A DNA stretch of 64,000 nucleotides from Escherichia coli. Its GTDB lineage: Bacteria > Pseudomonadota > Gammaproteobacteria > Enterobacterales > Enterobacteriaceae. The stretch's first letter is position 1. The number at the start of each line of letters is the position of its first letter. Location of the stretch: assembly GCF_044324875.1 (NCBI RefSeq), contig NZ_CP172185.1. One strand, 5' to 3'. Below are positions 36,575 through 39,500 of the stretch, in pieces. The position numbers are program-made.

Positions 36575-39500
36575 TAATTAAAAAAACCGCTCTTATCGAA
36601 TGGATGAGAGCGGTTTCGGATGGTTGACATCATTTTGTCGGATACGGCGTGAATGCCTTATTTCCGACGCAGCGTTTTAAACGCTACAAACAGGAATACA
36701 ATCCACACTGGCAGCAGAATCGCTGACAAGCGCATATCATCCATCGTGCACATCAGCAGCAAAATCATGCCGAGGAAGGCAATGCAGAGATAGTTGCCGA
36801 ACGGATAAAGCAGCGCCTTAAACTGTGTTTCACGTCCCTGACGTCGCATCGCCGCGCGAAAACGCAGATGCGCCAGGCAGATCATAATCCAGTTCAACAG
36901 CAGCGTTGCTACCACCAGCGCCATCAGCAGACCAAACGCTTTTTGCGGCAGCAGATAGTTGATTAACACCACCAGCGAAGTGATCGCTCCGGAAAGCATC
37001 AGCGAGTTAATCGGCACGCCGCGACGGCTGACGCGAGTCAAAAACTTCGGCGCATTACCCTGCACAGAAAGGCCAAACAGCATGCGGCTGTTAGAGTAAA
37101 CCCCGCTGTTATACACCGATAATGATGCTACCAGAATGACGAAGTTCAGCGCAGAAGCTACCACGTTGCTGTCGAGATTATGGAAAATCATCACAAAAGG
37201 GCTACTGTTGGATTTCACTTCCACCCACGGATAGAGTGCCAGTAAAACCACCAGTGAACCGATATAAAACAGCAGGATGCGATACACCACCTGATTCACT
37301 GCTTTCGGGATGCTTTTTTCCGGATCGCGCGCTTCAGCCGCAGTAATCCCAATCAGCTCCAGACCGCCGAAGGAGAACATAATTACCGCCAGCGACAAAA
37401 TCAGCCCATTCCAGCCGGTGGCGAAGAAACCACCGTAGCGCCAGAGGTTGTCGATACTGGCTTTTTCGCCGCCGTGCCCAGAAAACAGCAGCCACAGGCC
37501 AAAGCCGATCATACCGATGATCGCCAGCACTTTAATCAGCGCAAACCAGAATTCGGTTTCGCCATATAAGCGCACGTTTACCAGGTTAACGGCGTTGATG
37601 ATAATAAAGAAGGCGGCAGCCCAAATCCACGTTGGAACATCCGGGAACCAGTACTGCATATAGATGCCCGCAGCGGTCAGCTCTGCCATTCCCACCAGCA
37701 CGAACATCACCCAGTAGTTCCAGCCAGAGAGGAAGCCCGCAAACGGTCCCCAGTATTTATAGGCAAAGTGGGCAAATGAACCAGATACCGGCTCTTCGAC
37801 CACCATCTCGCCGAGCTGGCGCATAATCAGGAAAGCGATGATCCCGGCGACGCCGTAGCCCAGCAATACAGCCGGACCCGCCATCTGAATCGCCGGGCCA
37901 ATGCCAAGAAACAGACCAGTACCAATTGCGCCACCCAGCGCAATCAGTTGAATATGACGGTTATGTAATCCGCGATGAAGCGTCGGCTCTTGATTCGACG
38001 CAGTATCTTCCGATACGGTTGACGCGTTTTTCACGCCTTTCCCCTGTGTGTCTTTTTTGTTGAGGGGCACCTTTTAACATTTAGTGCCCATCGTCGCAAG
38101 ACACAATCCACACGGTTAAACCGGGTATCCTGCTTTTATTTCCGTACCCGATGTCGGTGCAGCCACATCAGCTTATATGCCGCCGGGATAATAAACAGCG
38201 ATAGCAAAGGCGCGGTGATCATGCCGCCAATCATCGGCGCGGCAATCCGGCTCATCACCTCTGAACCTGCTCCCGTTCCCCACAGAATCGGCAGCAGACC
38301 AGCGATAATCACCGCCACCGTCATCGCTTTCGGGCGCACGCGCAGGACCGCGCCGTGATACAACGCCTCATCCAGCTTCTGCTCGCTGAATGTTTGCGGA
38401 TTATTCAACGACGGCTCGGCCTCTATGGCGTGACGTAAATACATCAGCATCACCACGCCAAATTCGGCGGCAACCCCGGCGAGGGCAATAAAACCGGTGC
38501 CCGTCGCCACGGAAAGATGAAAGCCCATCCACCACAGCAACCAGATGCCGCCCACCAGCGCAAACGGTACGCTGCTGATAATCAGCAACGCTTCGCCCAC
38601 CCGACGGAACGCCAGATATAACAGCACGAAGATGATCATCAGCGTCATCGGCACCATGAGTTTCAGCTTATGGTTGGCGCGTTCCAGTAGCTCGAACTGC
38701 CCGGAGAATGCCACGCTGGTGCCCGGTTTTAACTGTACTTTTTCAGCTATCGCTTTTTGCAGATCGTGAACCACCGACACCATGTCACGATCGCGGGCAT
38801 CGATATAAATCCAGCTCGTCGGGCGCGCATTCTCGGTTTTCAGCATCGACGGTCCGGTAGAGACTTTAACGTCGGCCACGTCTGCCAGGGTGATTTGCTG
38901 CTTCATCGGCGTCAGGATCGGCAACTGGCGCAGCGCCTGCGGACTATCGCGCCAGCTTTGCGGATAACGCAGATTAATTGGATAACGGGCAATCCCTTCC
39001 ACCGTTTCGCCAACCATCGCCCCGCCCACCGCAGAAGTCACAAACAATTGCACATCCGCCACCGTCATACCGTAACGCGCGGCTTTTTCACGGTTAATCT
39101 CAACGTTGATATAGCGCCCACCTTCCAGACGCTCAGCAAGCGCAGAAGCTACGCCTGGCACCGTTCGTGCCACTTCTTCAATTTGCTCAGCCATCGCGTC
39201 GATATCCGCCAGCACAGTACCGGAAACTTTAATGCCGATGGGGCTTTTAATGCCAGTCGAGAGCATATCGATACGGTTACGAATTGGCGGCACCCACAGA
39301 TTCGCCAGCCCCGGCAGCCGCACGGTGTTATCCAGTTCCTCGATGATTTTGTCCATCGTCATGCCTGGCCGCCACTGCTCTTGTGGCTTAAGCTGGATGG
39401 TCGTTTCTACCATCTCCAGCGGAGCAGAATCGGTGGCGGTTTCCGCTTTGCCGGTTTTGCCAAATACCCGCGCCACTTCAGGTACGCTCATAATCAGCTT

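What the first reader, a model, noticed from the sequence alone, without database searches (positions are those of the whole stretch)
36637..36672. pheP C-terminal codons and stop lie inside a REP-like palindrome
The REP-variant GTCGGATACGGCGTGAATGCCTTATTTCCGACGCAG spans the pheP stop codon (36658-36660), so the last residues of PheP (…RRK*) are encoded by repeat sequence. This suggests a REP insertion that replaced or extended the original 3' end of the gene.
Basis: seen in the sequence. Interest (0 to 1): 0.15.

Follow-up and report, generated by a model that had tools for sequence, protein, structure and literature searches.

The report
Truncated REP supplies pheP stop codon
The small palindrome at the end of the E. 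coli phenylalanine-transporter gene is the leftover of a common intergenic repeat (REP) that an old deletion pushed against the gene, so the repeat now supplies only the stop codon; it is an ordinary evolutionary scar, not a new element.

Summary
GTCGGATACGGCGTGAATGCCTTATTTCCGACGCAG lies at 36637-36672. The pheP (minus strand) stop codon is 36658-36660. The first 25 nt match the E. coli REP consensus with 3 mismatches, where shuffles give none.

In 849 of 5426 complete E. coli genomes, and in E. albertii, the same site holds a complete two-REP BIME. There PheP ends ...LRRKVN*. The window allele (4552 genomes, including K-12) lacks 82 bp. That deletion removed codons V-N-stop, a spacer, the second REP, the linker, and the GTAG plus proximal arm of the first REP.

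What remains is 24 nt of REP. Its internal TAA is now the pheP stop. The codons L-R-R-K (36661-36672) are native: Citrobacter, Salmonella, Kluyvera and others have ...LRRK plus 1-2 residues with no REP nearby. The "right arm" TCCGAC is pheP's own Arg-Arg-Lys codons. It pairs perfectly with the REP arm only because Arg457 is CGG here and AGG in undeleted alleles.

The chimeric hairpin is weak: -13.8 kcal/mol here and -10.9 in K-12, against -18.8 for the intact REP. Its inner stem is decaying. pheP's real 3' end signal is the intrinsic terminator at 36580-36617.

Most likely this is a near-neutral relic. A residual role as an mRNA stabiliser or a ribosome-stalling hairpin was not tested.

The parts
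36637..36660 (-). REP remnant: 24 nt left from a z2-like REP (distal arm, loop, inner stem and the TAA of the REP's ...GGATAAGGCG... segment). Its GTAG and proximal arm are missing.
   Evidence: 3 mismatches to the REP consensus over 25 nt with 0 expected by chance. It aligns base for base with the complete REP GTAGGTCGGATAAGGCGTTCACGCCGCATCCGAC found at the same site in E. coli 23AR1217, FDAARGOS_144 and E. albertii.
36658..36660 (-). pheP stop codon TAA, derived from the REP rather than from the ancestral gene
   Evidence: In undeleted alleles the stop lies two codons further on (GTG AAY TAA, or GCG AGA TAA), and this TAA is the internal ...GGATAAGG... of the REP.
36661..36672 (-). Native pheP codons L455-R456-R457-K458. 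Bases 36663-36668 (TCCGAC on the + strand, GUCGGA in the mRNA) now act as the proximal arm of the chimeric hairpin.
   Evidence: LRRK is conserved in REP-free orthologues. Arg457 is CGG here and AGG in undeleted Escherichia alleles.
36637..36668 (-). Chimeric hairpin in pheP mRNA. Outer stem 36663-68 / 36637-42, inner 3-bp stem 36655-57 / 36646-48, with the stop codon in the internal loop.
   Evidence: MFE -13.8 kcal/mol, z = -2.5 against shuffles. The K-12 version gives -10.9, the intact REP -18.8, the canonical REP -19.5 to -21.3, and the window hairpin with AGG instead of CGG would give -7.8.
36660..36661 (.). Deletion junction (ambiguous by 1 nt). Relative to the BIME allele, 82 bp are missing here.
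   Evidence: Alignments. Counts in complete E. coli genomes: 4552 with this junction and 849 with the undeleted BIME.
36658..38034 (-). pheP coding sequence (458 aa, phenylalanine:H+ symporter)
   Evidence: ORF. RefSeq annotation of identical or near-identical loci.
36580..36617 (-). Intrinsic terminator of pheP (hairpin plus U7), shared back-to-back with the convergent gene ybdG. In this window an A.C mismatch interrupts the stem.
   Evidence: MFE -18.1 kcal/mol, z = -6.5. The K-12 version is detected as a 15-bp stem plus T-run. The window version is missed by the simple scan. It is homologous to the Citrobacter hairpin CCGATCTCATCC...GATGAGATCGG.
35330..36577 (+). ybdG (mechanosensitive channel), the convergent neighbour. 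The intergenic region is 80 bp.

Best explanation
The 36-nt palindrome is a chimera left by an old deletion.

Origin. The Escherichia ancestor had acquired REP sequence between the pheP stop codon and the pheP/ybdG terminator. Other genera have only the terminator there. E. albertii and about 16% of E. coli still carry a complete BIME at this site: pheP ...RRKVN*, 19 nt, an inverted y-like REP, a 16-nt linker, then GTAG plus a z2-like REP. In the lineage leading to most E. coli, including K-12 and this window, 82 bp were lost. The loss covered the codons Val-Asn-stop, the spacer, the first-met REP, the linker, and the GTAG and proximal arm of the second REP.

Result. The Lys458 codon now runs straight into the REP's ...TAAGGCG..., so the REP's TAA ends the protein. 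The pheP codons cGU CGG Aaa happen to pair with the surviving distal arm UCCGAC. The pairing is perfect because Arg457 is CGG rather than AGG. This gives a weaker hairpin with the stop codon in its internal loop.

Shown: the sequence relationships, allele counts, conservation of RRK and folding energies.

Inferred: the direction of change (complete REP to truncated REP), and the present role. I judge the remnant to be a largely neutral, decaying relic. Transcripts end at the strong intrinsic terminator 20-40 nt further on. The remnant can at most add a minor second barrier to 3' exonucleases, and it forms only when no ribosome covers the last three codons.
For: 1; a base-for-base alignment shows that the window and K-12 alleles equal the BIME allele minus 82 bp. 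The junction is ...AGG/CGG AAA|TAAGGC....
2. against 6, 8 and 9: pheP is 1383 nt (460 aa) in BIME alleles and 1377 nt (458 aa) in deleted alleles.
3; in 80 genomes of Enterobacteriaceae, PheP ends ...F-K-x-L-R-R-K plus 1-2 residues (SR, AR, AS, AH, VN, A, G) in many genera. In Citrobacter and Salmonella the stop is followed directly by the terminator hairpin with no REP.
4; the left 25 nt are REP with 3 mismatches, with 0 expected by chance.
5; the REP and linker part of the BIME allele matches a median of 9 other, unannotated places per E. coli genome, so it is a dispersed repeat.
6; 849 genomes carry the BIME, 4552 carry the deletion junction, and 3226 of those also carry a further 13-bp deletion.
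7. BIME alleles in E. coli have E. coli-like flanks (96-98% identity to the window), while E. albertii is at 87-89%. The complete form is therefore old and not a recent import.
8; hairpin energy falls from -18.8 (intact REP) to -15.6 (modelled fresh deletion), -13.8 (window) and -10.9 (K-12 and the majority allele). The drop comes from substitutions in the inner stem, as expected for a structure no longer maintained.
9. (PMC8266576): E. coli REPs are defined by GTAG plus a palindrome with an AA/GC bulge, and TnpA-REP tolerates no GTAG mutation. The remnant has lost GTAG.
Against: - The direction of change is inferred from structure and parsimony, not from a full phylogeny.
- One Escherichia lineage (L007) has a third form, a single REP with ...RRKAR*. 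A cryptic-clade genome (L008) already has the deletion. The order of events, and possible recombination between alleles, remain unresolved.
- The junction has only 1 nt of microhomology.
- Every deleted allele has CGG and every undeleted allele has AGG at Arg457. A simple deletion therefore needs one extra synonymous change, and that change is the very one that restores a perfect 6-bp stem (about 6 kcal/mol). This could indicate selection for the hairpin.
- No expression, RNA 3'-end or ribosome data were available to test the claim that the remnant is a neutral relic.
Confidence: 0.8

Rival explanations
1. One reading: a REP inserted into the end of pheP and replaced or extended the original C-terminus, so that RRK* is encoded by repeat DNA.
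For: The palindrome does span the stop codon. The stop codon itself is REP-derived.
Against: RRK is conserved in genera with no REP at the site. It is also present in Escherichia alleles where the REP is complete and lies well downstream. The gene became shorter, not longer. An insertion cannot explain a REP that lacks its GTAG and one arm.
Confidence: 0.05
2. Same origin by a different mutational path. An 84-bp deletion occurred between the imperfect direct repeats GTAGGA (pheP codons) and GTCGGA (REP proximal arm). A 2-nt gain (AA) then restored Lys-stop. Under this path the CGG of Arg457 and the first base of Lys458 would physically be REP DNA, which is closer to the reader's claim.
For: The 5/6 microhomology between GTAGGA and GTCGGA is better than the 1 nt of the simple model. 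It also explains why all deleted alleles carry GTCGGA, identical to the E. coli REP arm.
Against: It needs a frameshifted intermediate carrying a tail of about 23 residues. It also needs an exact 2-nt insertion that recreates the ancestral Lys and an in-frame stop. One synonymous substitution is far more probable. The neighbouring codons also differ synonymously between haplotypes (ACG CTG against ACA TTG), so local divergence is high anyway.
Confidence: 0.1
3. The chimeric hairpin is functional and kept by selection. After the deletion, a compensatory AGG-to-CGG change rebuilt the stem. The hairpin now either stabilises pheP mRNA against 3' exonucleases or slows ribosomes at the last codons, acting as a REP-type translational attenuator with tmRNA involvement.
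For: CGG associates perfectly with the deletion (4552 genomes) and AGG with the BIME (849 genomes). CGG adds about 6 kcal/mol. The hairpin folds better than shuffles, z = -2.2 to -2.5. REPs closer than 16 nt to a stop codon are reported to stall ribosomes and lower expression (Liang, Rudd and Deutscher 2015, as cited in PMC12306157). The intact REP at this locus also shows a compensated stem: GTCGGAT/ATCCGAC in E. coli against GCCGGAT/ATCCGAC in E. albertii.
Against: The inner stem has decayed by 2-3 substitutions, with a net loss of 2-5 kcal/mol. One synonymous change amid several others nearby is weak evidence. AGG is a very rare codon in E. coli (my own knowledge), so codon preference could explain the change. 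Other genera use CGN at this codon. The 5' arm lies inside the ORF, so a terminating ribosome has already melted the stem. A strong terminator lies just downstream. No experimental data were available.
Confidence: 0.15
4. A chance palindrome unrelated to REP.
For: The right arm is indeed ordinary coding sequence.
Against: 0 of 100 shuffles give a 25-nt match with 3 or fewer mismatches. The homologous position holds a complete REP/BIME in other Escherichia.
Confidence: 0.01

Closest known systems
E. coli REP (z2-like type) and the y-z2 BIME (bacterial interspersed mosaic element)
   Same: The remnant's 24-25 nt match the consensus GCCGGATGCGGCGTGAACGCCTTAT with 3 mismatches. They are homologous to a complete REP, part of a two-REP BIME, at the same site in other E. 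coli and in E. albertii. A BIME of the same make-up lies at 31138-31229 in this window.
   Different: The remnant has lost the GTAG tetranucleotide and its own proximal arm. The AA/GC bulge has become a larger AAUAA/GUA internal loop. Twelve nt of the apparent palindrome are coding sequence. The hairpin has only half to two-thirds of the canonical stability.
Stop-codon-proximal REPs that stall ribosomes (Liang, Rudd and Deutscher, Mol Cell 2015; known here only through PMC12306157)
   Same: A REP-type hairpin lies closer than 16 nt to the stop codon of the upstream gene, here at distance 0. The undeleted BIME allele, with 19 nt from the stop to the first REP, falls in the 'far' class.
   Different: The hairpin overlaps the ORF rather than following it and is much weaker. 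No stalling, cleavage or tagging has been shown for pheP.
REP hairpins as 3' mRNA stabilisers (Newbury et al. 1987, cited in PMC12306157)
   Same: A transcribed hairpin in the 3' region of an mRNA, upstream of the transcript's end.
   Different: A stronger terminator hairpin already protects the 3' end. The remnant's stem forms only when the last codons are free of ribosomes.
Gene-end remodelling by small repeats in other bacteria (for example Rickettsia RPEs and Neisseria Correia elements; from my own knowledge, not tested here)
   Same: Repeat DNA comes to contribute coding or stop signals to a host gene.
   Different: Those cases arise by insertion of the repeat into the gene. Here a deletion brought a pre-existing intergenic repeat up against the gene, and only the stop codon is repeat-derived.

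Membership tests
E. coli REP (REP_Ec; definition from PMC8266576, and PMC12306157) | Sequence match to the multi-copy REP consensus | tested here: met
   36637-36661 matches with 3 mismatches in 25 nt, and no shuffle matched. It aligns to the perfect REPs at 9392 and 31138.
E. coli REP (REP_Ec) | Conserved GTAG tetranucleotide immediately 5' of the palindrome | tested here: not met
   In pheP-sense orientation the hairpin is preceded by ...CUGC, not GUAG. GTAG is present in the undeleted alleles and lies inside the deleted 82 bp.
E. coli REP (REP_Ec) | Imperfect palindrome with both arms and the conserved AA/GC bulge | tested here: not met
   The REP's own proximal arm is deleted and pheP codons substitute for it. 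The bulge is now AAUAA opposite GUA.
E. coli REP (REP_Ec) | Extragenic location | tested here: not met
   The stop codon and 12 nt of the apparent palindrome lie within pheP.
BIME (two inverted REPs with a linker) | REP and inverted REP separated by a linker | tested here: not met
   In the window only one partial REP remains. The full BIME is present in 849 E. coli genomes and in E. albertii.
Translation-regulating stop-proximal REP (Liang et al. 2015, via PMC12306157) | REP hairpin within 15 nt downstream of the stop codon | tested here: met
   The distance is 0, because the hairpin contains the stop.
Translation-regulating stop-proximal REP (Liang et al. 2015, via PMC12306157) | Ribosome stalling, mRNA cleavage and tmRNA tagging, and lowered expression of the upstream gene | not testable with these tools
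   This needs ribosome profiling, SsrA-tag assays or reporter fusions. The primary paper was not held.
Intrinsic (Rho-independent) terminator | GC-rich hairpin directly followed by a U-run | tested here: not met
   This applies to the REP remnant: the hairpin is followed by ACAAAAUGAUG on the pheP strand and by GCAGCG on the other. The separate hairpin at 36580-36617 does meet the definition.

The most novel reading that the evidence does not exclude
After the deletion destroyed one arm of the REP, selection rebuilt a stop-codon-embedding hairpin through the synonymous AGG-to-CGG change in Arg457. Most E. coli would then carry a gene-overlapping REP-derived structure that tunes PheP output, either by stalling ribosomes at the last codons with tmRNA involvement or by stabilising the mRNA when translation is low. 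The three natural alleles (BIME, deletion, deletion plus the 13-bp loss) would differ in pheP expression.
Probability: 0.12. Interest if true: 0.45.

Novelty: new member of a known kind. Interest (0 to 1): 0.18.

Why it matters
The practical value is small.

- It explains why K-12 PheP is 458 aa while B2-type E. coli and E. albertii have 460 aa.
- It shows that an apparent coding-overlapping REP can be a deletion scar in which the gene supplies one arm and the repeat supplies the stop codon.
- It cautions against reading REP-like palindromes at gene ends as insertions.
- The naturally occurring allelic series gives a ready-made test of the reported rule that REPs closer than 16 nt to a stop codon depress translation. 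The series runs from a complete BIME 19 nt from the stop, through a truncated REP overlapping the stop, to the same allele with a shortened spacer to the terminator.

Tried and rejected
- I looked for a REP annotation in K-12. NC_000913.3 as held lists no repeat features at all in 36 kb around pheP, although perfect REPs exist there, so this is uninformative.
- I tried to read Liang, Rudd and Deutscher 2015 and Liang and Deutscher 2016. Neither is held. Their claims are cited only through PMC12306157.
- The RepRanger supplements held as text do not mention pheP or ybdG.
- No paper in the library combines pheP with 'repetitive extragenic palindromic'.
- Rfam has no family at the locus.
- The simple terminator scan finds nothing in the window at 36300-36900, because a T at 36594 puts an A.C mismatch in the stem. 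The K-12 version is found and folding supports the window version.
- I searched for intermediates and found none at 100% match among 5426 genomes: neither a deletion allele with AGG nor a BIME allele with CGG.
- The single-REP allele of L007 is absent from complete E. coli genomes.
- I considered TnpA-REP-mediated excision and rejected it. The right end of the deletion lies inside the REP stem, not at a CT dinucleotide beside the REP (one search gives the rule).
- My first coordinates for the E. albertii slice were off. That row of the alignment is not used.

Full report
**Observation**

The window is E. coli chromosome. It carries nfsB, ybdG (+, 35330-36577), pheP (-, 36658-38034) and cusA (-).

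The minus-strand ORF product ends ...FKTLRRK*. The stop is the reverse complement of 36658-60, and L455-K458 are encoded by 36661-72.

The arms GTCGGA (36637-42) and TCCGAC (36663-68) are perfectly complementary. Positions 36637-61 match the E. coli REP consensus GCCGGATGCGGCGTGAACGCCTTAT with 3 mismatches. The only other hits in 64 kb are two perfect REPs, at 9392 and 31138. None of 100 dinucleotide-preserving shuffles gave any hit.

**What the population shows**

A 401-nt query around the site matches 5403 of 5426 complete E. coli genomes, in three length classes. Fetching representatives and aligning them gives the key result.

In pheP-sense orientation these read:

...TTG CGT AGG AAA GTG AAC TAA, then a 19-nt spacer, then GCCCGATGCGCAAGCTTATCGGGCCTAC (an inverted, y-like REP), then a 16-nt linker, then GTAGGTCGGATAAGGCGTTCACGCCGCATCCGAC (GTAG plus a z2-like REP), then a spacer and the terminator.

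This is a standard two-REP BIME. Another of the same make-up lies at 31138-31229 in this window. The REP and linker part matches a median of 9 other unannotated places per E. coli genome.

In these strains pheP is 1383 nt and ends ...LRRKVN*. The window and K-12 read ...CTG CGT CGG AAA|TAA GGC ATT CAC GCC GTA TCC GAC. This is the same sequence minus 82 bp, with the junction between the Lys458 codon and the TAAGGCG of the second REP.

Allele counts in 5426 complete genomes:

| Allele | Genomes |
|---|---|
| Complete BIME | 849 |
| Deletion junction | 4552 |
| ...of which also carry a further 13-bp deletion between the remnant and the terminator | 3226 |

**Outgroups**

A scan of one genome per species returned 80 pheP loci. 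I extracted their C-termini, stop codons and 3' flanks.

- **E. albertii (L022)** has the complete BIME and ...RRKVN*.
- **A divergent Escherichia (L007)** has about 91% flank identity. It has ...RRKAR* followed after 12 nt by a single complete, though decayed, REP.
- **A cryptic-clade genome (L008)** has 93-94% flank identity and already carries the deletion allele.
- **Citrobacter and Salmonella** have ...LRRK plus SR, AR, AS or AH, followed within a few bases by a terminator hairpin. That hairpin (CCGATCTCATCC...GATGAGATCGG) is homologous to the E. coli one, and there is no REP.
- **Kluyvera, Cedecea, Superficieibacter and others** also keep LRRK plus 1-2 residues.

LRRK is therefore native PheP sequence. 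The REPs entered between the stop codon and the terminator in the Escherichia lineage. The K-12-type terminus is the ancestral one shortened by two residues.

E. coli BIME alleles have E. coli-like flanks (96-98% identity to the window), against 87-89% for E. albertii. The complete form in E. coli is therefore not a recent import.

**Direction of change**

The truncated allele retains 24 nt of REP (loop, inner stem, distal arm). It lacks the GTAG, the proximal arm and the partner REP. No known process would insert 82 bp that exactly completes a pre-existing half-REP into a canonical BIME, whereas a deletion explains everything. Whether the parent was BIME-like (82-bp loss) or L007-like (23-bp loss) cannot be decided. 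Downstream spacer sequence favours the E. coli BIME allele.

**An unresolved detail**

Every undeleted Escherichia allele has AGG at Arg457, and every deleted allele has CGG. Among 5426 genomes there is no exact deletion-with-AGG and no exact BIME-with-CGG.

CGG makes the pheP codons read GUCGGA. This is perfectly complementary to the surviving REP arm UCCGAC and worth about 6 kcal/mol. Three readings are possible:

- A neutral synonymous change. Neighbouring codons also differ between haplotypes (ACG CTG against ACA TTG), and other genera use CGN here.
- A compensatory change selected to rebuild a hairpin.
- A trace of a different path: an 84-bp deletion between GTAGGA and GTCGGA followed by a 2-nt gain.

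I favour the first, and give the others about 0.15 and 0.1.

**Structure and likely present role**

| Element (pheP mRNA) | MFE (kcal/mol) | z against shuffles |
|---|---|---|
| Remnant hairpin, this window | -13.8 | -2.5 |
| Remnant hairpin, K-12 and the majority allele | -10.9 | -2.2 |
| Modelled fresh deletion | -15.6 | not computed |
| Intact REP at this locus | -18.8 | -3.9 |
| Canonical REP | -19.5 to -21.3 | not computed |
| pheP terminator, 36580-36617 | -18.1 | -6.5 |

The loss of stability comes from 2-3 substitutions in the inner stem. This is what is expected of a structure that is no longer maintained.

The remnant is not a terminator, because no U-run follows it. The real pheP terminator is the hairpin plus U7 at 36580-36617. 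The scan detects it in K-12.

The 5' arm of the remnant is made of codons 456-458, so the hairpin can exist only when no ribosome occupies the end of the ORF.

Published work reports that REPs closer than 16 nt to a stop codon stall ribosomes and lower expression (Liang, Rudd and Deutscher 2015, read here only through PMC12306157). By distance alone the deletion moved pheP from the 'far' class (19 nt) to the 'near' class (0 nt). The hairpin is weak and must already be melted before termination. I therefore commit to a near-neutral relic with at most a minor role as a second exonuclease barrier. This part is inference.

**Comparison with known families**

By the definition in PMC8266576, an E. 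coli REP has GTAG plus an imperfect palindrome with an AA/GC bulge, and is multi-copy and extragenic. The element meets only the sequence-similarity criterion. GTAG, the proximal arm, the bulge geometry and the extragenic position are not met.

It should be filed as a truncated REP, or BIME remnant, and not as a REP. It is unlikely to be a TnpA-REP substrate, since that enzyme does not tolerate GTAG mutations.

**Verdict**

The finding is real and now explained. It is partly wrong, in that RRK is native and the event was a deletion, not an insertion. I found no description of this case in the searchable literature. Conceptually it is an ordinary example of REP/BIME turnover at the junction of convergent genes. 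Interest is low (0.18).

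Noticed in passing
window 36613-36625: These 13 bases (GTTTCGGATGGTT) are deleted in 3226 of 5426 complete E. 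coli genomes, including SE11 and O157:H7. The loss shortens the base of the shared pheP/ybdG terminator stem, removes the short T-run on the ybdG side, and brings the REP remnant to within about 10 nt of the terminator.
   Followed up: partly
window 36594: This window has T where K-12 and the other alleles have C. That puts an A.C mismatch in the middle of the pheP terminator stem (11+3 bp instead of 15 bp). The simple terminator scan then fails, but the fold is still -18.1 kcal/mol.
   Followed up: yes
window 31138-31229: A complete BIME: a perfect z2-type inverted REP, a 35-nt linker, and GTAGGCCTGATAAGCGTAGCGCATCAGGC. The Rfam family ES036 (CssrF sRNA) hits the linker at 31173-31214. A sok antitoxin RNA lies nearby at 32159-32315.
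   Followed up: no
window 9392-9425 and 9450-9490: A perfect REP is followed about 25 nt later by a different palindromic repeat, CCCCTCGCCCCATCGGGGAGAGGGTTAGGGTGAGAGGG. The same GGGAGAGGG...GGGTGAGGG motif recurs just downstream of pheP in many Enterobacter and Leclercia genomes.
   Followed up: no
L040, L045, L069, L078 (3' flank of pheP, about 2887-2930 in each locus): Other genera have independently acquired their own REP types (GCCCGGCGGCGCTCCGCTTGCCGGGCCTAC and relatives) starting only 6-7 nt after the pheP stop codon. The pheP 3' flank is therefore a recurrent landing site for REPs.
   Followed up: no
L006 (PYVH01000101.1, labelled Marinobacter sp. B9-2): A 7.8-kb contig in a Marinobacter assembly carries a pheP whose product is 100% identical to this window's PheP, together with the majority short spacer allele. 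This is almost certainly E. coli contamination of that assembly.
   Followed up: no
L022 against L002, REP proximal arm: At the pheP BIME, all Escherichia alleles have the distal REP arm ATCCGAC instead of the consensus ATCCGGC. E. albertii keeps the proximal arm GCCGGAT (a C.A mismatch), whereas E. coli has GTCGGAT, a compensating change that restores pairing.
   Followed up: partly
window 2742-2835 (-) and 53770-53843 (-): Rfam hits to the enterobacterial sRNA STnc70 (just above the gathering score) and to a tRNA. Neither is related to the finding.
   Followed up: no
E. coli genome search: Nine of the matches to the pheP-ybdG junction are on records labelled as plasmids. This suggests chromosomal segments carried on, or mis-assigned to, plasmids in a few assemblies.
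   Followed up: no
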